Shown here: positions 2,000 through 37,429 of the stretch, piece by piece
How positions within the stretch are numbered: the first letter of the stretch is position 1
Layout of the letters: each line of letters opens with the position of its first letter
Source: a virus
Length of the DNA stretch: 64,000 nt
IMG/VR virus record: IMGVR_UViG_3300045988_077100
Coordinates: 1 to 64,000 of that record
Direction: 5' to 3' (one strand)
Position numbers and translations under genes: made by a program
Notes under the pieces: model-generated
Told to the model about the DNA's origin: nothing
The model's database searches: none
What the model saw: only the letters and a program-made list of their open reading frames with translations

Positions 2000-2150
2000 T
2001 CGGTATGAGTATGGTCTTGATTAAAATTCTTGCGCTGACGGCCCCACAAGCGGCCTGAGAGATAAGAGAGAGGCGAGGGGCTGAAAACTGCCCCACGAAA
2101 CTCAAGGGGCGCTTACAGGGCTTCTGTGGGCAATTTACGAAATGGGGGTA

Positions 2151-2426
2151 TCAGCCGTTCAGGGCGTCCTTCAGGGGCTTTGCGGGGCGGAACACCGCAA
2201 CCGTCTTGGCGGGAAATTCCTTTTCCTCGCCAGTACGGGGGTCTTTCCCCACCCGTGCTTCCCGGTGCTTCACGGCAAACTTGCCGAAGCCGGGGACTTT
2301 GACCTCGCTGCCGTTGAGCAGGGATTCCTCAATGACGGTAAACAGGGCGTCGGCCAGCAGTGCGGTGTCATGCTTGGTGTGGCCGGTGCGCTCCGCAACG
2401 GCGGCGATCAATTCAGTCTTGTTCAT
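2151..2426 (-). CDS. hup: HU family DNA-binding protein
   Basis: MNKTELIAAVAE...FGKFAVKHREARVGKDPRTGEEKEFPAKTVAVFRPAKPLKDALN is a classic HU/IHF signature. AGGAGG RBS. Confidence 0.9.
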   Translation of the reverse strand: MNKTELIAAVAERTGHTKHDTALLADALFTVIEESLLNGSEVKVPGFGKFAVKHREARVGKDPRTGEEKEFPAKTVAVFRPAKPLKDALNG

Positions 2427-2454
2427 GGGACATCCTCCTTTCCTAAAATTTCAA

Positions 2455-2529
2455 TGGCAGGGATGGCTGGATTCGGACCAGCGCGTGAGGGAGTCAAAGT
2501 CCCTTGCCTTACCGCTTGGCTACACCCCT
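2455..2529 (-). tRNA. tRNA-Gln (UUG)
   Basis: Manual cloverleaf: AGGGGTG/CATCCCT acceptor, GCC/GGC D stem, AGGGA-CTTTGAC-TCCCT anticodon arm, GCTGG-TCCGAAT-CCAGC T arm, encoded CCA. Confidence 0.85.
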
Positions 2530-2888
2530 GTATTTTTACATAGGCTCCCGGCATTGCGCTCCGTTTGGATTGCTTACACAATTAGCCGTACAGAACCGGG
2601 CAAGCATACTGCCCTACACAACGGCCTTGCCCAAGGGCAGCCGTTACCTCACCACTTCCGCATACCTTTCGATGAACACGCCTCGGAGTTCGCTCTGCAT
2701 GGTTCTGTACGCGCTAACCGCGGAACTTTTCAGCCCTGCGCCGGTATGTCGGTCGCATCCGTTTCTTCATTCATAGCCGGAGCCAGCCAAATAATTATTA
2801 TTCGGCCTGCCGCTTTCATACAGCGCACAGGCAAGCCCCTTGTAGCGGTCTTACCCTTCCGCGGCGCCGCAATGCGGTAGCATACATC
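2530..2888 (-). ncRNA. candidate structured RNA spacer between tRNA genes (family unknown)
   Basis: No credible ORF. An 11-bp perfect long-range inverted repeat (2587-2597 / 2701-2711) encloses nested helices. Several further local hairpins. Confidence 0.3.
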
Positions 2889-2965
2889 TGGCAGGGACGG
2901 TTGGGAATCGAACCCACCCAAGCGGTTTTGGAGACCGCCTCGCCAGCCTTGGAACATTCGCCCCT
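2889..2965 (-). tRNA. tRNA-Trp(CCA)-like, non-canonical (no D stem, irregular T-stem junction)
   Basis: Acceptor AGGGGCG/CGTCCCT + G + CCA. GCGGT-CTCCAAA-ACCGC anticodon arm. GTGGG-TTCGATT-CCCAA T arm with a G.A pair and one extra nt. No pairable D stem was found. Confidence 0.45.
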
Positions 2966-3105
2966 ATGTTTGTCTGTCTTTCCAGACTGTCACCGCTGCG
3001 TGTCGGCTGCCTGCGGTTGGCCCCCATAGGTACACGTTTCTGTTGCCCTGCCGCGCCCATCTCCGGGCAACCCGTTTGTGATTGTACTTCTCATGGCGCT
3101 GGATG

Positions 3106-3180
3106 TGGTGCAGACGGCTGGATTTGAACCTGCATCGTTCCCCACTTCGGGGGTGCTCTAACCTACTGAGCTACGTCTGC
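3106..3180 (-). ncRNA. tRNA-like module 2 (canonical D arm, truncated anticodon arm)
   Basis: GCAGACG/CGTCTGC acceptor + ACCA. GCTC-AGTAGGTTA-GAGC D arm. The anticodon arm is reduced to CCCC-CGAAGT-GGGG (14 nt instead of 17). The T arm has one A.A mismatch. Confidence 0.5.
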
Positions 3181-3371
3181 AAATGTCCCCTCTGGGACAC
3201 TTCGTCAGGGAACCCTGGACGAGAGGTGCGAGGGGTCCTATGCCCAACCGGAATTGCACCGGGGCGTCAAGGGCAAGTACCAGTTGCCGGAGACGAGCTG
3301 CTTTTGCGGGCCGCAGCTTATATATTTATGGAGCACTGGCAGAGACGCATCACCCAAAATGCTCCCCGCCA

Positions 3372-3487
3372 TGGTGCAGATGGTGAGGATTTGCACCTCA
3401 CATAGCCTAACAGTGTCGGCCTCCACCGCTTTGCTGGGCGGCACCCGAACTGTCATTTGTAGCGTCTACCTATTCCGCTACATCTGC
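3372..3487 (-). ncRNA. tRNA-like module 3 (116 nt, extended rod replacing the anticodon arm)
   Basis: GCAGATG/CATCTGC acceptor + ACCA. Class-II-like D arm TAGCG-GAATAGGTAGA-CGCTA. (G)TGAGG-TGCAAAT-CCTCA(C) T arm. The central arm ACAGT-TCGG..CCGC-CCAGCAAA-GCGG..CCGA-ACTGT is about 44 nt. Confidence 0.45.
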
Positions 3488-3644
3488 ATATAGATGCCGG
3501 ACTTTCCCGGCGGTCATGTCGCTCAGATTCTCCGAGAATACCGTCCCGATAGCGGCTGTATCAACCCGCCGACTCCACTGCCAGATATGGAGGTTTCATT
3601 CCCACTACGGTTTATAGAGTAACCACCTCTTATGTGGGCGGGCA

Positions 3645-3713
3645 TGGTGCAGACGGCCGGAGAGGTCCCCGGCTACCGGGTGGAAAGGACAAAAGCACCG
3701 GTTGGACATCTGC
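3645..3713 (-). ncRNA. tRNA-like module 4 (69 nt mini, two hairpins between the acceptor strands)
   Basis: GCAGATG/CGTCTGC acceptor (one G.U) + ACCA. Internal hairpins ACCGGTG..CACCCGGT and CCGGGG-ACCT-CTCCGG. No D arm and no T-loop consensus. Confidence 0.4.
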
Positions 3714-3825
3714 ATAGACCCGCCTTGTTTGCGCCATGGCGGGTGATGTGGCGGCCCGACTTTCCGGGCTGTCATACACATTCAGGAGGCTTTGCAATCC
3801 ATGCAGGGCGCTGCTCGTGCACCCT

Positions 3826-3899
3826 TGGAGCGGATAATGGGAATCGAACCCACCTTCGCGGCTTGGGAAGCCGCCGTTCTACCGATGAACTATATCCGC
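3826..3899 (-). tRNA. tRNA-Gly (CCC)
   Basis: Fully canonical manual fold: GCGGATA/TATCCGC, GTTC/GAAC, GCGGC-TTCCCAA-GCCGC, GTGGG-TTCGATT-CCCAT, T + CCA. Confidence 0.9.
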
Positions 3900-4007
3900 A
3901 TATGCCCTGCCGGGGTCGCACCGGGGCACCGCTCCGAGAACGGCGAGCGTGTACTTACGGGCCACGCTTGGAAGGTAGGAGAATACTACGTGCGGCATCC
4001 GCGCCGC

Positions 4008-4108
4008 TGGTGAGCGAAACCGGAGTTGAACCGGGAGAACAGAGGACAAGCCAAAAACCCTGTTCGCGCAGGGTGTGAGTCTGCGCCGTGTCCGCACGAT
4101 TTTCGCCC
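4008..4108 (-). ncRNA. selC/allo-tRNA-like RNA (101 nt; 8-bp acceptor, 4-bp T stem, long variable arm)
   Basis: GGGCGAAA/TTTCGCTC 8-bp acceptor + A + CCA. D hairpin (T)CGTG-CGGA-CACG(G). GCGCAG/CTGCGC stem with a 9-nt loop ACUCACACC. Variable arm GAACAG..CTGTTC. CCGG-TTCAACT-CCGG T arm. Confidence 0.45.
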
Positions 4109-4253
4109 ATGCTGTTTTGGAGTTTGGCGGCTGCCGTTGGGTAGGCCGGCAGCCGCCGTGCATGAGGGAAGATAGAAAGATGGAAAGTAAGGGCGGCGTC
4201 TATCTCGCCCTTGATTTTATTATACGATACCCCTCCAATAGGGTTTTTGCCAT

Positions 4254-4664
4254 TTAGGATTCCGGGGCCAAGGCAAAGCAAAGGTTACAAAAACAATCCA
4301 GCGGCGCTTCGGTGATTGGAATAAAAACCCGTTCCACGGTGCGGTGAGAATAAGAATCTGGAATCGCGCAAAACGGGCCGAGCCAAGCCATTTTTAAGTA
4401 TTGTTCACCAGCGTGTTCGCATATATATACCTGCTGCTTCGGGGGAACGAGGTTCGCACGAATGAAATCTTGCAGACTGAAAATTTCAGGTTTGGGGCTT
4501 GCGGCGGCTTCTTTCGCGTGTTTCAGCTCCGCCTCAAGCCGTTCGGTTTCGTTGAAAAGATGCCTAATCGTTGTTGACGCCTCCGTGCAGACGATAGACT
4601 CTCGGAAATCATGCGACTCTTCGGCAAGCGAAACAAGATCGTCAATCAATGCGTTGTACTTCAT
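4254..4664 (-). CDS. hypothetical protein (136 aa)
   Basis: Start moved to MKYNALIDDLV. The N-terminal extension in the track overlaps the upstream gene and is low-complexity. Confidence 0.55.
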   Translation of the reverse strand: MKYNALIDDLVSLAEESHDFRESIVCTEASTTIRHLFNETERLEAELKHAKEAAASPKPEIFSLQDFIRANLVPPKQQVYICEHAGEQYLKMAWLGPFCAIPDSYSHRTVERVFIPITEAPLDCFCNLCFALAPES

Positions 4665-21108: not shown

Positions 21109-21846
21109 ATGAAAACCTTTGAGGAATACAAGGCGGAGGCCGCATGGGAAGCCCACTTGGAAAACGCCCTTCGCGTGGCACGGCGGGAAGCTGCGGAGCG
21201 TAGGCGGAAGGCCATCCGCAGAGCGGTTCTGCTGTGGGTGTCTGTGGCGCTGGTGCTGGCGGTGCTGTGGCTGACACGGGACACCGGGAAGCCGGAGCCG
21301 GAGGCGCCCACCGTAACGGCGGGACGGCTGGCCGGGGACGAGACACCGGCGGCGGAGTACGCTTCGCTGGTTCTCTGGCAGGAGCTGGACCCTGAGACAG
21401 CCCCGCCGGTTCAGGAGGACTACGAGAACGAGAAGATCGAAGCGGCGCTTTACGCCAGCGGGTATTTCCGGGAGGACGTTCCTCTGGACGGAGAACTGCA
21501 AAGCCAGCTTCGGGCGGCCTGTGAGGAAAGCGGCGTGGAGTACACGCTGATGCTGGCCATCATCCGCAAGGAGACCGGCTACCGGAACGTGAAGGGCGAC
21601 GGCGGGGCCAGTTGGGGCTACTGCCAGGTACAACCCCGGTGGCACAAGGCCCGGATGGAGCGTTTGGGGGTCACGGACCTGATGGACCCCTTCGGGAATT
21701 TCCGGGTGGCCTGCGACTACATGGCGGAGCTTTTGAGCCGGTATGACGTGGAGAACGCCCTGACGGCCTACAACAGCGGCCATCCGGGGCACAGCGATTA
21801 TGCCAGAACCGTGATGGGGTATTGGGAGGAACTGAAAAATGGGTGA
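21109..21846 (+). CDS. membrane-anchored lytic transglycosylase (SLT domain)
   Basis: TM segment AVLLWVSVALVLAVLWL. LMLAIIRKETGY...WGYCQVQPRWH...ALTAYNSG is an SLT-like catalytic region. Confidence 0.75.
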   Translation: MKTFEEYKAEAAWEAHLENALRVARREAAERRRKAIRRAVLLWVSVALVLAVLWLTRDTGKPEPEAPTVTAGRLAGDETPAAEYASLVLWQELDPETAPPVQEDYENEKIEAALYASGYFREDVPLDGELQSQLRAACEESGVEYTLMLAIIRKETGYRNVKGDGGASWGYCQVQPRWHKARMERLGVTDLMDPFGNFRVACDYMAELLSRYDVENALTAYNSGHPGHSDYARTVMGYWEELKNG

Positions 21847-22486
21847 GTTGGTACGGCTGACTTTCCCGGACCGGCCGCAATGGCTGGCAGGACGGGGCCG
21901 TGGCATCGGCGGCAGCGAGGCGGCGGCGGCCATTGGGCGAAGCCCATGGAAAACGGCGCTGACGCTGTGGAAGGAGAAAACCGGGACGCAAGCCGCGCCT
22001 GATCTCGGCGGCAACGAGGCCGTGGAGCTGGGGCGGCGAATGGAACCGGCCATCCGGGACTTCTTCATGGCCCAGTATCCCGGCTACGAGCTTTACTACG
22101 GTGCCTATGACATTCTCTACCAGAGCGACCGCCCATGGCTTTTTGCCACGCTGGACGGAGAACTGACGGAGACGGACACCGGACGGAAGGGCATTTTGGA
22201 GATCAAAACCTCGACCGTGAGCCGGGGGATTGACTGGGCGAAATGGCGGGATCAGGTTCCGGAGAACTATTTCACGCAGATCCTTCACCAGCTGCTTGCC
22301 ACCGGGTATGACTTCGCCGTGCTCTATGCGGCGCTCTATGATCTGTCCGGCAACATTACACTGCGCCGCTATGACTTTGAGCGGCGGGAGCACGAGGCGG
22401 ACCTGAAATGGCTGCTGGAACAGGAAACGGCCTTTTGGGACCATGTGGAGGCGGGGACGATGCCCGCCCAGACTTTGATTTTGTAA
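21839..22486 (+). CDS. YqaJ-family viral recombinase exonuclease
   Basis: GIGGSEAAAAIGRSPWKTALTLWKEKTG...ILEIKT... is the lambda-Exo/YqaJ pattern. Confidence 0.85.
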   Translation: MGELVRLTFPDRPQWLAGRGRGIGGSEAAAAIGRSPWKTALTLWKEKTGTQAAPDLGGNEAVELGRRMEPAIRDFFMAQYPGYELYYGAYDILYQSDRPWLFATLDGELTETDTGRKGILEIKTSTVSRGIDWAKWRDQVPENYFTQILHQLLATGYDFAVLYAALYDLSGNITLRRYDFERREHEADLKWLLEQETAFWDHVEAGTMPAQTLIL

Positions 22487-22530
22487 GGCGCACAACTCCG
22501 AAAAATTTAAACATGAAAAGGAGAATTTAT

Positions 22531-22818
22531 ATGGAAAAAGAAGTGTTTCACATCACGGTGAAAAACGTGGAATCCGGGGAGGTTGTGATGGACAGGGACT
22601 CTGCGGCGTTTACCTGCATTGCGGCAAATGAGGAGAATACGCATGTACTCACCTCCCTTAACGGAGATGCCATTCTTGTGGGCAGGCTGTTGTGGCGGGC
22701 GCAGGAGGAGATCGATCGGATTCTCCAGGCGCATCCCGAACTGAAACTTGTTGCGAAGGCCATTGCCGCTTTGGAGGCGGAGGATGCCGATAAGACGGAC
22801 GAGGAGGAGAAAGCATGA
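22531..22818 (+). CDS. hypothetical protein (95 aa)
   Basis: Start at MEKEVFHI with AAGGAG RBS. Confidence 0.5.
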   Translation: MEKEVFHITVKNVESGEVVMDRDSAAFTCIAANEENTHVLTSLNGDAILVGRLLWRAQEEIDRILQAHPELKLVAKAIAALEAEDADKTDEEEKA

Positions 22819-23063
22819 TGCTGGTAAACATTCGCTATTACAAGCCCCTGCACAAGGCATACGCGGGGAACGCATTTACCTACCGGACGGCACTGCCGCT
22901 GACGGTGGGGGACAAGGTGATGGCTCCCACGCAGGGCGGAGACAAGCGGGCCATGGTGGTGGAGGTCAACGTGCCGGAGAGCCGTGTGGACGAGCGGATC
23001 ATGCCGCTGCTGAAGGAGATCACGGCCTATGACACCGGGGAAAAGGAGGACGCGGACGCATGA
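22815..23063 (+). CDS. hypothetical protein (82 aa)
   Basis: ATGA-coupled start. Confidence 0.5.
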   Translation: MMLVNIRYYKPLHKAYAGNAFTYRTALPLTVGDKVMAPTQGGDKRAMVVEVNVPESRVDERIMPLLKEITAYDTGEKEDADA

Positions 23064-23977
23064 GCAGCGCAATGGAATTTGCAATTACCACGGATCTTAC
23101 TCCGTTGAAGGAGTTTAACATCTCCGCCAACTTTGCGGAGTGTCAGGCGTGGCTGGAAGAGAATCTGGCTCCATACCGGGGCATGGTTGTGACGGAGGAG
23201 GCTATCGGGGCGGCGAAGAAGTACCGGGCCAACATCCGCTCCGTGGCCGCACGTATCGACGAGTGCCGGAAGATGGCCAAGGCGGCGGCGCTGGCAAGCT
23301 ACGCCCCCTTTGAGGAAAAGTGCAAGGCGCTGACGGCCCTGTGCGACGAATCTGCCGCCAATCTGGACGGCCAGATCAAAGCCTTTGACGAACGGCGCCG
23401 CATGGAGAAGCTGGACGCTATCCGGGCCTTTTTTGATGAGCGCATCGGAGAACTTGCGGAATTTCTCCCGTGGGAAGCGGTTCTGGACAAGCGGTGGGGC
23501 AACGCCACCTATTCCGAGGAACAGGCCCACAAGGACATTCTGGTGGCGATCAGCAAGTGCGACAGCAGCATTGCCGCCATCCGCGGGCTGAACAGTGAGT
23601 TCGAGACCACGCTGCTGGAAGAGTACAAGCAGTGTCATGACCTGCCCACGGTGCTGAAAAAGGATCAGGCGCTCAAGCGGGTGAAGGAGATCGAGGAACA
23701 GCGGAAGGCGGAACAGGAACAGCGCAGACAGCAGGCCGAGGCTGCGCGGGCGGCGGAGGAAGCCGCCAGAGCGGAGCGGTTGCAGGCCGTCGTGGAAGCG
23801 GCCAGAGCCATTCAGACAAGTCCAGTCGTCTCAGAGCCGGTAAAGGCAGCGGTGAAAGCCGCAATGGAACCGTCCCTCATTACGCTTTCGTTCCGGGTGA
23901 CAGGCACGGTGGAGCAGCTGAACGGACTGCGGGATTATATGCTGGCCAACGGCATTGCCTTTGGCCGTGCGGACTGA
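23060..23977 (+). CDS. DUF1351-like phage protein (RecT-associated)
   Basis: 305 aa with a central coiled coil. Sits immediately upstream of recT, as in many Firmicutes phages. Confidence 0.6.
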   Translation: MSSAMEFAITTDLTPLKEFNISANFAECQAWLEENLAPYRGMVVTEEAIGAAKKYRANIRSVAARIDECRKMAKAAALASYAPFEEKCKALTALCDESAANLDGQIKAFDERRRMEKLDAIRAFFDERIGELAEFLPWEAVLDKRWGNATYSEEQAHKDILVAISKCDSSIAAIRGLNSEFETTLLEEYKQCHDLPTVLKKDQALKRVKEIEEQRKAEQEQRRQQAEAARAAEEAARAERLQAVVEAARAIQTSPVVSEPVKAAVKAAMEPSLITLSFRVTGTVEQLNGLRDYMLANGIAFGRAD

Positions 23978-23996
23978 ATAAGGGAGGAATTTTGAC

Positions 23997-24986
23997 ATGA
24001 AGGCAACCAACAGCTTTGCGGCCCAGACCCAGCGGGACAAGCCCACGTTTTCCATGGCGATCGCGGCCCCCAGTATGCAGAAGATGATCCAGAGCGCTCT
24101 GCGGAGCGACAAGGCGGCGGCGCGGCTGACCTCCACGCTGATCTCCGCCGTGAATGCCAGCGAACAGCTGAGAGCCTGTGAACCCAGCACCATTGTGGCG
24201 GCGGCACTTCGGGGCGAGGGCATGGGCCTGATCTTTGGCCATGGCTACTATGTGGTGCCCTACGGGACTACCGCTACATACCTACTTTCGTACAAGGGCT
24301 ATATCCAGCTTGCCATGTCCACCGGATTTTATGCGGACATTGACTGCGTGGAAATCCGTGAGGGCGAGATCGAGGGCCGTGACCGGCGAACCGGTAAGCC
24401 CATCGTGAACCTTGCCAAGTACGAGAGTGACGAGGAACGGCAGAGTAAGCCCATTATCGGCTACTACGGCTACTTTGAATTGAAGGACTCTACGTTCCGC
24501 TACGAATACTGGCCCATGGACCGGCTCCTGCGCCATGCGGACCGGTACTCCAAGGCGTTCAGCTATGAGAAGTTCAAGGCCATGCAGAGCGGGGAAATGA
24601 ACCCCAAGGACGTGGAAAAGCTGCTGAACGGTTCCCCCTGGTACGATCCCAACGGCGGGCAGGACCGGATGTGCCGCAAGACGATTCTGCGGCAGCTGCT
24701 GAACAGCGGCTATGCGCCCCTGTCCCCGGAGGTCAAGACCCAGCTCATGGAGGAAGCCAGCGCCGAGGACGAGGGCATGATCCCGGATATGCCCATGCCG
24801 GAGCGCACGGTGGCATCTACCGGAGAGGTGGTGGAGACCGCGCCTGCGGCTGTGGAAGCCCATCAGGAGACCGTGGAGGGTGACGCCGGTATGGTTATGC
24901 CCCCCAAGTCTGAAAAGACCGCAGAGACCCCTCAGAAGGGGCAGGACGAGGGAATGGACTATGCGGCCACCTTCTTTGGGGAATGA
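23997..24986 (+). CDS. recT: RecT-family single-strand annealing recombinase
   Basis: ...CEPSTIVAAALRGEGMGL...YVVPYG...LSYKGYIQLA...MCRKTILRQLL is typical of RecT. Confidence 0.85.
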   Translation: MKATNSFAAQTQRDKPTFSMAIAAPSMQKMIQSALRSDKAAARLTSTLISAVNASEQLRACEPSTIVAAALRGEGMGLIFGHGYYVVPYGTTATYLLSYKGYIQLAMSTGFYADIDCVEIREGEIEGRDRRTGKPIVNLAKYESDEERQSKPIIGYYGYFELKDSTFRYEYWPMDRLLRHADRYSKAFSYEKFKAMQSGEMNPKDVEKLLNGSPWYDPNGGQDRMCRKTILRQLLNSGYAPLSPEVKTQLMEEASAEDEGMIPDMPMPERTVASTGEVVETAPAAVEAHQETVEGDAGMVMPPKSEKTAETPQKGQDEGMDYAATFFGE

Positions 24987-24997
24987 GGTGAGGAGAC

Positions 24998-25498
24998 ATG
25001 CTGATCTCCATTAAGACGCGGGAGGAGGACGGGAGCCGGTACATGATCTGTGCCGGCACCGTCACCCGTGAAGTCAAAACCGGAACCACAGCCAAGGGAA
25101 CGCCGAAGGCGGAATTTGGCATGAAGTACGCCAAGGGCGAGTTCATGAACGTGTCCGCCGTGGGGGACGATGACGTGACCCGCATGGCGGCGTGCCTGGA
25201 AAAGGGAGATGCCGTTCTGGTGTGCGGCGTGTGGAAAACCCGGAGCTACACCACCCGTGACGGGGAACAGAAGGAGTGGAGCGAGCTTCACGCGGAGTTC
25301 GTGGCCCCGCAGGCGGTGATGGCGGCCGTGCTGGACCTGCTGTCGGCGGGAAGCGGGAAAACGCCCGTCTCCGAACCGGCGAAGCCTATGGAACACAGCG
25401 GCAGTCAGGCGGGTTCCCTTGACAGTCAGGAGGACGCCGTTTTGCCGTGGGAACAGCCCGAAGAGGACGAACCCTACGATTATGTACCGCAGATTTAG
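24998..25498 (+). CDS. ssb: single-stranded DNA-binding protein (phage SSB-like)
   Basis: OB-fold-like N-terminal half, a disordered linker and an acidic aromatic tail (EEDEPYDYVPQI). Position after recT. Confidence 0.6.
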   Translation: MLISIKTREEDGSRYMICAGTVTREVKTGTTAKGTPKAEFGMKYAKGEFMNVSAVGDDDVTRMAACLEKGDAVLVCGVWKTRSYTTRDGEQKEWSELHAEFVAPQAVMAAVLDLLSAGSGKTPVSEPAKPMEHSGSQAGSLDSQEDAVLPWEQPEEDEPYDYVPQI

Positions 25499-35189: not shown

Positions 35190-35560
35190 CAATGGCTCAA
35201 CGGAAGAAACGATACCGGCTGTACGCCATGGGGCGGACCCGGAAAACGGAAGAGATCGCGTATGACACCCGGTTTTACCGGATCTGCGCAGGGTACATTC
35301 TGCTGTATCTCACCGGACGGAAAAAGCCGGAGGGCGCAGTGGAGGTGGCCGGGGCGGACCTGGACCGTCTGACAGACGGGGACCGCCTGTGGCTGGCAGA
35401 CTGCAACACCATGATCCTGGCAGAAGCGGCGGCCCAAGCGGGCGTAACGCCGGAAGAAGCGGAGAAGCAATGGGTCAGCACTCTGGACCGGCTGGAATGG
35501 GAATTGCAGAAGGAGCGGGAACGCATGAAGGGAGGCGGGGAGCATGGACCTGCAAACTGA
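35186..35560 (+). CDS. hypothetical protein (124 aa)
   Basis: ORF track entry, coupled start. Confidence 0.5.
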   Translation: MTMAQRKKRYRLYAMGRTRKTEEIAYDTRFYRICAGYILLYLTGRKKPEGAVEVAGADLDRLTDGDRLWLADCNTMILAEAAAQAGVTPEEAEKQWVSTLDRLEWELQKERERMKGGGEHGPAN

Positions 35561-37316
35561 ATTGAGGTCGGTGCAGTTCGCCTCGTACCCGAAGATATTC
35601 GGAAGGCTGCGGGAACTGGCGGCACAGTACGGCGACCTGCCCATGGACGCCGTAAGCAGCGCGTTTATGCGGGCGGCCAGCAACACCTACACCCGGAATA
35701 ACCCCTACATTCAGAACCGCCGGGTAAAGGCCATTTCCTCGCTGCCGGTGAATTACAGCAAGGACAAGGTGGCGGAGATGCTCACCGCACCGGACGGCAA
35801 CGAACAGGGCCTGCGGCAGGTGGCCCACGCGCTGGAATGGACGGCGTATCCCCTGTTTCACACCCGGAAGGTGTACACGGAAATGCTGACCTACCACAGC
35901 TACATTGCCCCGGAGTACGCCACAGAGGAAGAAGCGAAGCGGGAGGACTTCCTGCGGGAATGGCAGCTTTTGGACAAGCTGCGGAAAACGCTGGACCCCA
36001 AGGCCACGGCCCATGAGATCGCGGGGCAGGTATTGCAGGAGGGGAAGGTTTTCTACTATCCCCGGGTCAGCGTGGACAAGCCCCACAACAAGGTAAACCA
36101 CGCTTTTTTACAGCAGCTCCCCAGCGACTGGGTAAAGATCGTGGGGTTCAACAACGTGTCGAAATACACGGTGGCGATGAACCTGATGTACTTTATGCAG
36201 CCGGGGACGGACCCCTTGCAGTTCGGAGACCTGCTGCTGCCCTATCTGGATGACTTCTACGCATCGGCGGAGCGGGCACCGGAGGGCACGGGGAAGCGGG
36301 TGATCTTCGCGGCGCGGGACCGGGTGGACCTGAACGTGCTGGAACAGCGGAGGAAGCAGACCGGCGGCCGCTTGGCGGGAGACCCGGAGGTATACTCCCA
36401 GAACGGGCGGTGGTTCTACTGGGTGACGCTGCCGGTGGACAAGATTTTCACCTTTGAGGCAGACGATGTATCCCGGAACGCCATTTCCCCGCTGGCGGGG
36501 CTGTATCTCTCTCTGGTGCAGATGGCGCAGTACGAGCAAATCCAACTGGAACTGGTGCAGAACCCCCTGATCGCCCTGTTTACCGGCGAGATCCCCTACA
36601 AGGATAAGTCCGAAATTACAAGCACAGAGGACGATTACCGGCTTTCCGACGCGGGACGGCGGCTGTTTGAGTACCTGTGGTATCAGATGCTGACAGAGAG
36701 CAACACCAGCGGGATCGGCTGGTTCACGGCCCCTGTGGAAAACATCAAAATGCACCAGTTGGCAGAAGCACCCAGCGCCACCAAGATTTCCGCAGCCGGG
36801 TACAGCTACGCCATGAACAAGGCAGGGCTGTCCGCCATCGTCCCCACCACGGAGGACCCCAAGGCGGGCATCGCACAAATCTCCCTGCAGATCGAGGGAA
36901 AGTTTGCGGAGTGCGTATACCGGGGCTACGAACGGATGATGGCCGCCATTATGGACAAGCTGAATCTGAAATATTCGTGGCGGTTTGAGCTATTCGGAGA
37001 AATCGCAACGGATGATGATTTGCGTGAAAGCCTGCGAAAAGATATGACCCTTGGGATTCTATCCGCCTCTGCGAAATACATGGCGTTATACGATATGTCA
37101 CTATTGGATGATTTGTCATTGAGCAATGCAATCATTGCATCTGGCATTATGGAGAAAAGAATTCCGCTTGCGTCTACCTATACCGGCGGTGGAGATGCAA
37201 ATAAATCCCAAGGGGGAGAGGCAAAAAGAATTATGAACCCCGGGGGGAGGCCAACATCTGGCGGCAAAGTAACAAGCGAGGGACAAGAGGCCGACTTAGA
37301 TACTTACGGGGAATGA
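35544..37316 (+). CDS. portal protein
   Basis: 590 aa directly after the terminase gene. Call is based on size and position. Confidence 0.7.
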   Translation: MDLQTELRSVQFASYPKIFGRLRELAAQYGDLPMDAVSSAFMRAASNTYTRNNPYIQNRRVKAISSLPVNYSKDKVAEMLTAPDGNEQGLRQVAHALEWTAYPLFHTRKVYTEMLTYHSYIAPEYATEEEAKREDFLREWQLLDKLRKTLDPKATAHEIAGQVLQEGKVFYYPRVSVDKPHNKVNHAFLQQLPSDWVKIVGFNNVSKYTVAMNLMYFMQPGTDPLQFGDLLLPYLDDFYASAERAPEGTGKRVIFAARDRVDLNVLEQRRKQTGGRLAGDPEVYSQNGRWFYWVTLPVDKIFTFEADDVSRNAISPLAGLYLSLVQMAQYEQIQLELVQNPLIALFTGEIPYKDKSEITSTEDDYRLSDAGRRLFEYLWYQMLTESNTSGIGWFTAPVENIKMHQLAEAPSATKISAAGYSYAMNKAGLSAIVPTTEDPKAGIAQISLQIEGKFAECVYRGYERMMAAIMDKLNLKYSWRFELFGEIATDDDLRESLRKDMTLGILSASAKYMALYDMSLLDDLSLSNAIIASGIMEKRIPLASTYTGGGDANKSQGGEAKRIMNPGGRPTSGGKVTSEGQEADLDTYGE

Positions 37317-37429
37317 CATGGTTGTCAGCATGGGGATAGGGTAGCTCCCGAAAAGCGGTTGCCTTGCCGCCTTCCCCAGCTTACAAAAAGGCAAATTACG
37401 AAAGGCGGTAATTGAATGTGAGCACTGTC

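What the first reader, a model, noticed from the sequence alone, without database searches (positions are those of the whole stretch)
3106..3713. Three tRNA mimics share a GCAGAYG...CRTCTGC-ACCA acceptor end but have no decodable anticodon loop
Modules at 3106-3180, 3372-3487 and 3645-3713 (minus strand) all start GCAGA(C/T)G. All end with the complementary strand, discriminator A and an encoded CCA. Their bodies diverge strongly.
- Module 2 has a textbook D arm and a near-canonical T arm. Its anticodon arm is shortened to CCCC-CGAAGU-GGGG.
- Module 3 has a class-II-like D arm and a good T arm. A ~44-nt rod with an 8-nt apical loop stands where the anticodon arm would be.
- Module 4 is a 69-nt mini with two unrelated hairpins.

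The aminoacyl-acceptor end is conserved while the decoding end is lost. That looks like selection for acceptor/CCA-end function and not like random pseudogene decay. Possible roles are a decoy or substrate for acceptor-end-targeting enzymes, a primer, or a tRNA-like regulatory RNA. The function is unknown.
Basis: partly seen in the sequence, partly recalled or inferred. Interest (0 to 1): 0.7.

Follow-up and report, generated by a model that had tools for sequence, protein, structure and literature searches.

The report
Phage array of anticodon-less tRNA mimics
A gut-bacterial virus carries a shuffling array of small tRNA-derived RNAs that all keep the same amino-acid-acceptor end but have no working anticodon, so the end itself appears to be their function, possibly as a decoy for tRNA-attacking host defences.

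Summary
Window 3106-3180, 3372-3487 and 3645-3713 (minus strand) are three closed units with the acceptor helix GCAGAYG/CRUCUGC, A73 and an encoded CCA. None has a decodable anticodon loop, and intron-aware prediction does not rescue them.

They lie in a ~2-kb noncoding tRNA island (primase, island, HU) of a temperate Oscillospiraceae phage.

Related loci hold at least 106 distinct module sequences in 131 loci, with about 14 unalignable body types of 63-117 nt. Nearly all keep the same acceptor helix. T and hairpin stems change by compensatory substitutions, and the anticodon-arm position is replaced wholesale. The link between body and acceptor holds in loci retrieved without using the acceptor.

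Closely related phages carry one to four modules in different combinations.

Shown: a selected, non-decoding tRNA-like family with a fixed acceptor end.

Inferred: RNase P-type excision, and a role as competitor or decoy for an enzyme that reads the acceptor stem. The stem meets every published determinant of the toxSAS FaRel2, which needs only a minihelix.

The main rival is mascRNA-like processing punctuation for the conserved structured spacer RNAs. Function is untested.

I rate it a new variant of a known kind (pseudo-tRNAs, irregular tRNA polycistrons).

The parts
3106..3180 (-). Module 2 (type M75). A tRNA-like RNA with acceptor GCAGACG/CGUCUGC-A-CCA and canonical D and T arms. The 'anticodon' arm is reduced to CCCC-(C)GAAGU-GGGG.
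   Evidence: Near-identical or variant copies (M74/M75) occur in many relatives. T-stem covariation is shown.
3372..3487 (-). Module 3 (type M116). It has acceptor GCAGAUG/CAUCUGC-A-CCA, a tRNA-Leu-like D arm (GCGG AAUAGGUAGA CGCU) and a 6-bp T stem with loop UGCAAAU. A ~48-nt rod replaces the anticodon and variable arms.
   Evidence: with no tRNA or Rfam call. About 10 distinct relatives were found. Changes in the rod are mostly U-G-preserving or mismatches, so true covariation is weak.
3645..3713 (-). Module 4 (type M68-70 'mini'). Layout: acceptor helix, UCCAA, variable hairpin 1, UA, then hairpin 2 (GCCGGGG-ACCU-CUCCGGC) stacked on the acceptor, then A-CCA.
   Evidence: Alignment A1 of 20 minis has 99% of cells paired and compensatory changes at 4 pairs. 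It exceeds all shuffles on covariation score and exceeds the slid controls.
4008..4108 (-). 'Module 1', a further CCA-ended tRNA-like unit with a different acceptor (GGGCGAAA/UUUCGCUC, 8 bp) and a 4-bp T stem (8/4). It has a long variable arm and a 9-nt 'anticodon' loop.
   Evidence: Generic acceptor scan, fold at z = -3.1. ARAGORN calls it only at lowered threshold, as an intron-bearing tRNA.
3826..3899 (-). Genuine tRNA-Gly(CCC), the first canonical tRNA of the island.
   Evidence: ARAGORN and Rfam tRNA at 64.8 bits.
2889..2965 (-). Aberrant tRNA with a Trp anticodon, the Trp-type acceptor AGGGGCG, G73 and an abnormal D arm.
   Evidence: ARAGORN Trp(cca). It fails Rfam tRNA and scores 36.8 bits on tRNA-Sec, below the gathering score. 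It is 81% identical to 'tRNA-OTHER' of Bacillus phage Mater.
2455..2529 (-). Genuine tRNA-Gln(UUG), the last element of the island, just upstream of the HU gene.
3714..3825 (-). Spacer s0 (tRNA-Gly to module 4). It is hairpin-rich and ends in the hairpin CCCGCC...GGCGGG followed by UCUAU.
3488..3644 (-). Spacer s2 (module 4 to module 3). Its core is also conserved in distant islands. It ends in the hairpin GCCGG-GAAAGU-CCGGC followed by AUCUAUAU.
3181..3371 (-). Spacer s4 (module 3 to module 2). It ends in the hairpin GUCCC-AGAG-GGGAC followed by AUUU. In other phages the same spacer follows M63, M65, M81 or M69.
2966..3105 (-). Spacer s3 (module 2 to the Trp-like tRNA). It ends in the hairpin CAGUCUG-GAAAG-ACAGAC followed by AAACAU.
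   Evidence: 4 covarying pairs.
2530..2888 (-). Spacer s6, a conserved structured RNA of about 300 nt that starts directly after the CCA of the preceding tRNA(-like) element.
   Evidence: It occurs in more than 119 IMG/VR contigs. Alignment A3 has 54 pairs, 9 of them with compensatory changes. There is no Rfam match.
2151..2426 (-). Phage HU-like DNA-binding protein gene, immediately downstream of the island and co-directional with it. It served as the acceptor-independent anchor for retrieving relatives.
   Evidence: Pfam Bac_DNA_binding, E = 3e-30; used as anchor.

Best explanation
What it is (shown, about 0.9). The three modules belong to a large family of phage-encoded, tRNA-derived RNAs that cannot decode. 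They lie head-to-tail with real tRNAs and structured spacers in a co-directional ~2-kb noncoding island. The island sits between the primase and HU genes of a temperate phage of gut Oscillospiraceae.

Anatomy (shown). Every module is a closed unit with a 7-bp acceptor helix G1-C72, C2-G71, A3-U70, G4-C69, A5-U68, Y6-R67, G7-C66, then A73 and an encoded CCA. The base at -1 is usually U, and a stable hairpin lies 4-8 nt upstream. Everything else differs between body types:
- a full D arm and T arm with a stub in place of the anticodon arm;
- a Leu-like D arm with a long rod;
- just two hairpins.

How it most likely works (inferred, about 0.35-0.4).
1. The island is transcribed as one precursor.
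2. RNase P cuts at each G+1.
3. The modules accumulate as 63-116-nt RNAs that present one particular acceptor end but cannot enter the ribosomal decoding cycle.
4. They act by mass action as competitive substrates or decoys for a protein that reads the acceptor-stem sequence and the CCA end.

The best candidate for that protein is a host abortive-infection toxin that inactivates tRNA 3' ends. Examples are toxSAS pyrophosphokinases of the FaRel2/CapRel type, or MenT/AbiEii-type nucleotidyltransferases.

This reading accounts for three features. The anticodon is lost so the RNAs do not interfere with translation. The bodies stay dissimilar because identical repeats are deleted by recombination. 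Copy number (1-4) turns over quickly, as in other counter-defence hotspots.

Cleavage at the modules would also define the ends of the neighbouring spacer RNAs.
For: Anatomy and non-decodability.

Family size: 106 distinct sequences in 131 loci, in length classes from 63 to 117 nt.

Acceptor invariance without circular retrieval:
- HU-anchored loci;
- loci anchored on the s6 RNA;
- body-only signatures.

The RNA structure is selected. T and hairpin stems covary (CG<->UA, UA<->AU, GC<->CG), while acceptor pairs 1-5 and 7 never vary in the same sequences. Observed covariation exceeds 500 of 500 shuffles and all slid controls.

The middle of the type-A modules has no consensus.

Modules and spacers assort independently among phages whose HU proteins are at least 90% identical. 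Arrays hold 1-4 modules.

RNase P-friendly context: at -1 there is U 157 times, C 50, A 3 and G 0. G1-C72, A73 and an encoded CCA are present, and every spacer ends in a hairpin plus a short leader.

Modules also occur 4-6 nt from another tRNA-like unit with no spacer between them. So they are not merely spacer punctuation.

The stem is not that of a normal host type-I tRNA. A scan of 185,579 species genomes for this acceptor joined to the common D arm found 9 hits. Six are phage-like Oscillospiraceae or Clostridia MAG contigs.

Precedent (PMC11559606). FaRel2 pyrophosphorylates the CCA end and accepts a bare minihelix. Its determinants are G1-C72, C2-G71, G4-C69 and R5-Y68, with pair 3-70 free. 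The GCAGAYG helix meets all of them. The same paper notes that phages counter tRNA-targeting defences with their own tRNAs.
Against: - No expression, processing or 3'-end data exist.
- Several spacers begin with a hairpin 0-1 nt after the CCA. This could hinder 3' trimming and leave the CCA internal.
- No tRNA-end-modifying toxin was identified in the host, and none was looked for.
- No partner protein was found in the phage.
- The match to the FaRel2 determinants is four common base pairs. I estimate a few per cent of tRNA stems would match by chance.
- Pairs 3 and 7 are also invariant, which FaRel2 recognition does not explain.
- Other CCA-ended modules in the same kind of island have other stems (GGGCGAA, GGAGAUG, GCGGCAU) that fail those determinants.
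- Titrating a catalytic enzyme needs high RNA levels.
- Most relatives come from one metagenome project (IMG 3300045988), so part of the invariance reflects recent common ancestry.
Confidence: 0.38

Rival explanations
1. Processing punctuation, working like mascRNA/MALAT1. The functional products would be the conserved structured spacer RNAs. The tRNA-like units would only recruit RNase P (and 3' processing) to give those RNAs defined ends. Loss of the anticodon would simply prevent interference with translation.
For: - Spacers are conserved and hairpin-rich.
- s6 is a widespread structured RNA with 9 compensatory pairs. It begins right after a CCA, about 130 nt before its conserved core.
- Every spacer ends in a stable hairpin plus a 4-8 nt leader before G+1. 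That is what would protect a 3' end made by RNase P.
- Real tRNAs (Gly, Trp-like, Gln) occupy equivalent positions.
- U is preferred at -1.
Against: - RNase P reads shape, not the sequence of stem pairs 2-7 (established knowledge). The invariant helix sequence across about 14 bodies, set against freely covarying T stems, is then unexplained.
- Modules occur directly adjacent to other tRNA-like units with no spacer to release.
- A minimal array has one module between two real tRNAs (L273).
Confidence: 0.25
2. Scaffolded effector RNAs. The acceptor, D and T arms would act as a stable, processable tRNA scaffold. The swapped middle segment would be the active part, for example a pairing seed or protein-binding loop. 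Each body type would then have its own target.
For: - The variable part sits exactly at the anticodon-arm position.
- The T-arm variant tracks the downstream flank rather than the middle type.
- The same D and T scaffold carries different middles (M116 versus M105).
- One middle (CGGACUUCGUGAGCCG) occurs on two different acceptors.
- Type 72/73 displays CCAGGAGGUAUG, a perfect Shine-Dalgarno sequence plus AUG.
Against: - Within a type the middle is no more conserved than the D loop or T stem.
- The minis lack the scaffold.
- No targets were identified.
- It does not explain why the stem sequence is fixed.
Confidence: 0.12
3. Non-ribosomal aminoacyl acceptors or synthetase titrators. A host aaRS that does not need the anticodon (a Leu-type A73 identity, or acceptor-based recognition as for Thr or Gly) would charge the modules. 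The aminoacyl-RNA would then feed a non-translational transfer reaction or sequester the enzyme.
For: - A73, G1-C72 and C2-G71 are classical identity positions (PMC9976931 was listed; the interpretation rests on my own knowledge).
- Module 3 keeps a Leu-like D arm, and genuine phage tRNA-Leu genes share the GCAGAYG stem.
- There is precedent for irregular tRNAs that are charged but not used in translation (PMC5389517).
- tRNAOther of B. cereus is aminoacylated, though poorly (PMC3399842).
Against: - The minis have neither a D/T elbow nor a variable arm.
- No transferase or aaRS-like gene was found in the phage genes scanned.
- LeuRS does not read the stem sequence (own knowledge), so stem invariance is again unexplained.
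Confidence: 0.1
4. DNA-level or neutral explanation. The modules would be decaying duplicates of one tRNA gene. Their ends would stay identical because the 8-13-nt acceptor sequences serve as recombination junctions, or are homogenised by recombination, in a phage with its own RecT/YqaJ system. The RNAs would have no function.
For: - Combinatorial arrays can be derived from a longer array by deletions between the repeated ends.
- The phage encodes YqaJ exonuclease, RecT and SSB.
- Relatives are close and mostly come from one data set.
Against: - Compensatory changes keep the T, hairpin and 6:67 pairs.
- 98-99% of cells are paired.
- Pair 6:67 differs between modules of one genome and is type-specific, so there is no homogenisation.
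- The stem is identical in islands whose s6 RNA is only about 75% identical.
- There are no target-site duplications, and the integrase lies 13 kb away.
- Direct repeats are a liability in phage genomes, so their retention argues for constraint (inference).
Confidence: 0.1
5. Ordinary or unusual decoding tRNAs. This would include intron-containing tRNAs, or frameshift or doublet-decoding suppressors with 6-nt or oversized loops.
For: - Module 2 passes the Rfam tRNA threshold.
- ARAGORN assigns nominal anticodons to some relatives: Ile aat, Phe aaa, Met cat, Gly ccc.
Against: - ARAGORN with introns makes no call on modules 3 or 4.
- Loops lack U33 and the 5-bp stem. The nominal anticodons change with trivial substitutions inside one body type.
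- The minis have no anticodon arm at all.
- There is no bulge-helix-bulge or group I intron signature (Rfam).
Confidence: 0.03

Closest known systems
mascRNA / menRNA (tRNA-like units at the 3' ends of MALAT1 and NEAT1)
   Same: Both are small tRNA-like RNAs with a truncated anticodon arm and a CCA end. They are excised by tRNA-processing enzymes from a longer noncoding transcript, and that cleavage also makes the neighbour's end (PMC11693755 and PMC8457004, listed).
   Different: - mascRNA is eukaryotic, single-copy and has its CCA added after transcription. Here the units are phage-encoded, multi-copy and carry an encoded CCA.
- There is no Rfam match.
- The invariant stem sequence across many bodies has no counterpart.
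Polycistrons of irregular tRNAs and allo-tRNAs (Mukai et al. 2017, PMC5389517)
   Same: Both are clusters of non-canonical tRNA-like genes in bacteria and phages. Some members are charged but not used in translation, and some are proposed as regulatory ncRNAs and linked to toxin-antitoxin loci. Module 1 of this island has the 8/4 architecture.
   Different: - Modules 2-4 are 7/5, 7/6 and 7/7 rather than 8/4 or 9/3.
- They lack anticodon loops altogether.
- They share one fixed acceptor helix across unrelated bodies.
- They come from gut Oscillospiraceae phages, not soil Acidobacteria.
tRNAOther, the pseudo-tRNA of Bacillus cereus (PMC3399842)
   Same: It is a tRNA-like RNA that does not act in translation and works as a regulator. 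The island's Trp-like element resembles a phage 'tRNA-OTHER'.
   Different: - tRNAOther keeps a Trp anticodon, which is what it uses (T-box regulation). Modules 2-4 keep the acceptor end and lose the anticodon.
- tRNAOther is a single chromosomal gene, not a cassette array.
Phage tRNA islands with large ornate RNAs (GOLLD, ROOL)
   Same: Both are noncoding islands in phages or prophages in which tRNAs neighbour, or are embedded in, conserved structured RNAs of unknown function (PMC12286853 and PMC5737381).
   Different: - There is no GOLLD or ROOL match.
- The structured RNAs here are smaller, about 110-360 nt.
- The tRNA-like units are non-decoding.
Phage tRNAs as counter-defence against tRNA-targeting immunity (T5 tRNA-Tyr versus retron Ec78, tRNA-Lys versus PARIS)
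   Same: In both cases phage-encoded tRNA-type RNAs are proposed to neutralise host effectors that attack tRNAs (10.1101/2023.03.15.532788, PMC12409363, PMC11559606).
   Different: The known cases are functional replacement tRNAs that escape the nuclease. The proposal here is non-functional mimics that would absorb an enzyme targeting the acceptor end. That mechanism has not been demonstrated for any phage.
T4 stable RNAs species 1 and 2 (rnaC, rnaD) in the T4 tRNA cluster
   Same: They are small stable RNAs of unknown function, co-transcribed with phage tRNAs and matured by RNase P. This comparison rests on my own knowledge and was not tested here.
   Different: No sequence comparison was possible with these tools. 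The T4 RNAs are not known as a multi-body family with a shared acceptor helix.

Membership tests
Canonical decoding tRNA (Rfam RF00005) | The cloverleaf scores above the family gathering score. | tested here: inconclusive
   Module 2 scores 48.2 bits against a gathering score of 29, so it meets the test. Modules 3 and 4 get no hit even at E<=10, so they do not.
Canonical decoding tRNA (Rfam RF00005) | A 5-bp anticodon stem with a 7-nt loop, U33 and a readable triplet. | tested here: not met
   Module 2 has a 4-bp stem and a 5-6-nt loop. Module 3 has a 48-nt rod. Module 4 has no such arm.
Canonical decoding tRNA (Rfam RF00005) | A 7-bp acceptor stem, a discriminator base and a CCA end. | tested here: met
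   All three modules have it.
Intron-containing tRNA | An intron-aware predictor recovers a normal tRNA after the insert is removed. | tested here: not met
   ARAGORN -i adds no call at default thresholds. Calls made at lowered thresholds span spacers or start inside a module. There are no group I intron hits in Rfam.
mascRNA-menRNA family (Rfam) | A match to the covariance model. | tested here: not met
   There is no hit at E<=10 in 2000-4600.
mascRNA-like processing element (works-like) | It lies at the 3' end of a structured ncRNA whose end is made by RNase P cleavage. | not testable with these tools
   The layout is compatible: a hairpin, a leader, then G+1, with U preferred at -1. Cleavage itself cannot be shown here.
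tmRNA | A tRNA-like domain together with a tag reading frame. | tested here: not met
   ARAGORN -m finds none. Rfam finds none. There is no G3-U70.
allo-tRNA (8/4 or 9/3 acceptor branch) | A 12-bp acceptor branch split 8/4 or 9/3, with a long variable arm. | tested here: not met
   Modules 2, 3 and 4 fold as 7/5, 7/6 and 7/7. Only the neighbouring module 1 (4008-4108) is 8/4.
Substrates of acceptor-stem-reading toxSAS (FaRel2 type) | G1-C72, C2-G71, G4-C69, R5-Y68 and a 3' CCA on at least a minihelix. | tested here: met
   GCAGAYG/CRUCUGC-ACCA satisfies all four pairs (one search compared with PMC11559606).
Substrates of acceptor-stem-reading toxSAS (FaRel2 type) | The RNA is actually bound or pyrophosphorylated by such an enzyme, and the enzyme is present in the host. 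| not testable with these tools
Host genomes were not screened for toxSAS genes.
Mobile DNA repeats (MITE or attC-like cassettes) | Terminal inverted repeats with target-site duplications, or an adjacent dedicated recombinase. | tested here: not met
   The flanks show no duplications. The integrase is 13 kb away. The internal stems covary as RNA.

The most novel reading that the evidence does not exclude
The modules would be the first RNA-based counter-defence against immune effectors that attack the tRNA 3' end. In this reading a phage encodes a diversified, recombination-proofed array of acceptor-arm decoys. These soak up a toxin that reads the acceptor stem and modifies the CCA end (toxSAS, MenT or AbiEii type), and so protect host tRNAs with a Thr, Gly or Leu-like stem during infection.
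Probability: 0.25. Interest if true: 0.85.

Novelty: new variant of a known kind. Interest (0 to 1): 0.68.

Why it matters
Pseudo-tRNAs are usually dismissed as decay products. Here comparative data show the opposite pattern to decoding tRNAs: the anticodon end is dispensable and is replaced by almost anything, while the acceptor helix sequence is frozen.

This gives a natural system for asking what the acceptor end does outside translation.

It also gives a concrete, testable candidate for how phages might neutralise the growing class of defence toxins that pyrophosphorylate, extend or acetylate tRNA 3' ends.

Finally, it exposes a common, unannotated RNA island in human-gut Oscillospiraceae phages. 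The island holds tRNA-likes and at least one widespread 300-nt structured RNA, and current annotation pipelines miss it.

Tried and rejected
- Rfam at gathering and at E<=10. Nothing was found for modules 3 and 4 or for any spacer. The weak abiF and Plastid-ycf2 hits are trivial hairpin or antisense-tRNA matches.
- ARAGORN with introns, lowered thresholds and tmRNA mode. No credible rescue.
- GenBank phages. Only two unannotated gut 'Bacteriophage sp.' records share the island, and no cultured phage does.
- Acceptor-pattern scans of IMG/VR. Most rows were chance or coding matches, for example a recurrent 69-nt gene segment. They were filtered by structure and are circular for conservation claims. 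The HU-anchored and s6-anchored sets were therefore used instead.
- Protein-coding reading of the island. ORFs on both strands have no Pfam family. Cassette indels and tRNAs argue against coding.
- Neighbouring genes as partner enzymes. Pfam and PHROGs found primase, HU, integrase, antirepressor, YqaJ, RecT, SSB and methylases. No tRNA enzyme was found. Not every ORF of the window was scanned.
- attP or tRNA-fragment explanation. Rejected because the units are complete and closed, are tandem, and lie 13 kb from the integrase.
- Covariation in spacers s0-s4 and in the module 3 rod. There is too little divergence to decide.
- Resemblance of the mini loops to the 16S 3' tail, and of the type-72 loop to a Shine-Dalgarno sequence. 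Noted, but post hoc and not tested.
- PANGU and nucleoid-associated-protein sensing. Read because of the adjacent HU gene; no relevant link was found.
Full report
**1. Observation**

Reading the minus strand confirms three units at the stated coordinates.
- Module 2, 3106-3180, 75 nt: GCAGACG...CGTCTGC-A-CCA.
- Module 3, 3372-3487, 116 nt: GCAGATG...CATCTGC-A-CCA.
- Module 4, 3645-3713, 69 nt: GCAGATG...CGTCTGC-A-CCA.

The exact 3' motif CRTCTGCACCA occurs four times in 64 kb, against about 0.06 expected (my arithmetic). Three are these modules. The fourth (36514-36524) has no 5' partner.

Each unit folds with the acceptor helix closed, and each folds better than its shuffles (z = -2.7, -3.7, -2.6).

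ARAGORN calls module 2 'tRNA-???' with a two-base anticodon and ignores the other two. Rfam's tRNA model accepts module 2 (48.2 bits) only by deleting part of the anticodon loop. It finds nothing on modules 3 and 4 even at E<=10. Allowing introns changes nothing at default thresholds.

The description is accurate apart from two details. Module 2's T stem has an A-A mismatch in this window. Module 3's apical loop is 6-8 nt depending on one pair.

**2. Context**

The modules sit in a ~2-kb stretch with no credible ORF. On the minus strand the order is:
1. an 8/4 tRNA-like 'module 1' (4008-4108);
2. tRNA-Gly(CCC);
3. module 4;
4. module 3;
5. module 2;
6. an aberrant Trp-anticodon tRNA;
7. a ~360-nt spacer;
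8. tRNA-Gln;
9. an HU gene.

Upstream on the same strand is a primase. The window also encodes an integrase, an antirepressor, YqaJ, RecT, SSB and DNA methylases. It is therefore a temperate phage.

A species-genome scan places the family in gut Oscillospiraceae and Clostridia MAG contigs such as Dysosmobacter and Oscillibacter.

No sigma-70-like promoter or terminator stands out inside the island. This is consistent with, but does not prove, one long precursor.

**3. Relatives**

Pattern scans of IMG/VR returned many chance hits but also dozens of true relatives. Because those scans presuppose the acceptor, I retrieved loci independently in two ways.
- Through the HU protein. This gave 37 close relatives with HU at least 90% identical.
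- Through a conserved core of the long spacer RNA. This gave more than 119 contigs.

In the HU set every array between tRNA-Gly and tRNA-Gln consists of one to four units with the GCAGAYG/CRTCTGC helix. The only departures are a few A73->G and one C72->U.

Body-only signatures in the unbiased loci are flanked by that helix.

Altogether there are 106 distinct sequences in 131 loci. They fall into about 14 body types:
- two-hairpin minis of 63, 65 and 68-70 nt, where module 4 belongs;
- D+T-arm types of 67, 72/73, 74/75 (module 2), 77, 78, 81, 82, 83, 91 and 93 nt;
- Leu-like rod types of 105, 116 (module 3) and 117 nt.

**4. What is conserved**

In 26 type-A sequences, acceptor pairs 1-5 and 7 never vary, and pair 6:67 is C-G or U-A. 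Two T-stem pairs switch CG<->UA and UA<->AU. The segment in place of the anticodon arm cannot be aligned.

In 20 minis the helix is again fixed. Hairpin 2 switches CG<->UA at two pairs and hairpin 1 switches GC<->CG.

Both alignments exceed all 500 shuffles in covariation score and in paired cells. Both far exceed the slid-register controls.

So the RNA structure is maintained by selection, and the acceptor helix is constrained at the level of sequence.

Module 3 is the least supported. About ten variants exist, and changes in the rod are mostly wobble-preserving or mismatches.

Nominal ARAGORN isotypes on relatives (Ile aat, Phe aaa, Met cat, Trp cca) flip with single substitutions inside one body type and lack U33. 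They are artefacts.

**5. Array dynamics**

Spacers fall into a dozen classes. Modules and spacers assort almost freely among near-identical phages. For example, s2 is followed by M63, M65, M72, M74, M81, M116, Trp or Gln, and s4 is preceded by M63, M65, M69, M81 or M116.

Every spacer ends in a stable hairpin, often with a GAAAG loop, plus a 4-8-nt leader. The base at -1 is U in 157 cases, C in 50 and never G.

The observed combinations can be derived from longer arrays by deletions between the repeated ends. The phage's own RecT system could catalyse this (inference).

The region behaves as a hypervariable hotspot between conserved flanks.

**6. Mechanism**

Shown: a selected family of non-decoding tRNA-derived RNAs with a fixed acceptor end.

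Inferred from established RNase P rules (own knowledge): U-1, G1-C72, A73 pairing with the P15 loop, and an encoded CCA make these good substrates. The modules are therefore probably excised.

The key question is why the helix sequence is frozen. RNase P does not read it. LeuRS-type anticodon-independent recognition does not read it either. Proteins that do read acceptor pairs include some aaRSs and several tRNA-end toxins.

The toxSAS FaRel2, from Firmicutes and Actinobacteria, pyrophosphorylates the CCA end and accepts a bare minihelix. It requires G1-C72, C2-G71, G4-C69 and R5-Y68, with pair 3 free (PMC11559606). The GCAGAYG helix satisfies all four.

A decoy or competitor role would explain four things:
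- the loss of the anticodon;
- the tolerance of any stable body;
- the multiplicity of dissimilar bodies, since identical repeats would recombine away;
- the rapid turnover.

This is my best explanation, at about 0.38.

Weaknesses:
- there are no expression data;
- hairpins directly after some CCA ends may block 3' maturation;
- no toxin has been identified in the host;
- pairs 3 and 7 are also invariant;
- other stems occur in the same kind of island (GGGCGAA, GGAGAUG, GCAGGCA, GCGGCAU).

**7. Rivals**

- **Processing punctuation.** This is the main rival. The spacers are conserved. s6 is a bona fide structured RNA that begins right after a CCA. The terminal hairpins look like protective 3' ends. 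But this does not explain the frozen stem, and modules also occur 4-6 nt from other tRNA-like units.
- **tRNA-scaffolded effector RNAs.** These fit the targeted replacement of the middle, but the middles are not specially conserved.
- **Aminoacyl carriers.** There is precedent, but the minis lack an elbow.
- **A neutral or DNA-level account.** Covariation contradicts it. So does the type-specific pair 6:67 within one genome.
- **Unusual decoding tRNAs.** effectively exclude them.

**8. Comparison with known systems**

The closest are:
- mascRNA/menRNA, with the same architecture and processing logic, but no model match;
- the irregular tRNA polycistrons and allo-tRNAs of Mukai et al.;
- tRNAOther of B. 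cereus;
- phage tRNA islands with GOLLD or ROOL.

Literature searches found no description of a phage family of anticodon-less tRNA mimics with an invariant acceptor helix. They also found no RNA decoy for acceptor-end toxins.

I therefore rate it a new variant of a known kind (non-translational tRNA-like RNAs), with interest about 0.68.

**9. Caveats**

- Most relatives come from one IMG project (3300045988) and from gut metagenomes, so phylogenetic depth is modest.
- The genome scan required the common type-I D arm and a C-C before the 3' strand. A host tRNA with this stem but a different body would have been missed.
- All functional statements are inference.

Noticed in passing
window 2530-2888 (-): This is a conserved structured RNA of about 300 nt ('s6') that starts directly after the CCA of a tRNA or tRNA-like unit. 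It is present in more than 119 IMG/VR contigs. It has 54 predicted pairs, 9 with compensatory changes, including a long-range closing helix. No Rfam family matches.
   Followed up: partly
window 2889-2965 (-): This tRNA has a Trp anticodon (CCA), the Trp-type acceptor AGGGGCG and G73, but an aberrant D arm. It fails Rfam tRNA and scores 36.8 bits on tRNA-Sec, below threshold. It is 81% identical to the 'tRNA-OTHER' of Bacillus phage Mater. It may be related to the non-translational pseudo-tRNA tRNAOther of B. cereus.
   Followed up: partly
window 4008-4108 (-): 'Module 1' is a CCA-ended unit with an 8-bp acceptor (GGGCGAAA/UUUCGCUC, G2-U71) and a 4-bp T stem. It has a long variable arm and a 6-bp stem with a 9-nt loop, which is an allo-tRNA-like 8/4 architecture. 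It also contains a terminator-like hairpin plus U run at 4057-4074.
   Followed up: partly
L011, L023, L035, L094 and others (type 72/73 modules): In the position of the anticodon loop these relatives carry CCAGGAGGUAUG, a perfect Shine-Dalgarno sequence (AGGAGGU) followed by AUG. The minis, including window 3645-3713, carry the pyrimidine tracts UCCUUUC and ACCUCUCC, which resemble the 16S rRNA 3' tail. This is a post hoc observation and its significance was not tested.
   Followed up: no
s6-anchored loci, e.g. L023 2971-3062, L365, L336: Related islands hold other closed, ACCA-ended modules with different acceptor helices: GGAGAUG (112-115 nt, rod type), GCAGGCA (79 nt) and GCGGCAU (92 nt, no D or T arm). 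None is called as a tRNA.
   Followed up: partly
window 21839-25498 (+): A phage recombination module is present: YqaJ-like exonuclease, DUF1351, RecT and SSB. It could drive the cassette shuffling and deletions seen in the RNA island.
   Followed up: no
window 37329-37391 (+): An int-alpA RNA motif (Rfam RF02996, 40.9 bits, above the gathering score) lies just downstream of the ORF at 35544-37316.
   Followed up: no
window 3239-3265, 3901-3927, 4011-4037 and 3496-3517, 3754-3775: Short hairpin-forming sequences recur in the island, and some lie just upstream of tRNA or tRNA-like 5' ends. On the minus strand they read GCCCCGGUGCRAYYCCGG... and AUGACMGCCSGGAAAGUCSGGC. They may be leader or 3'-end-protection elements.
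   Followed up: partly
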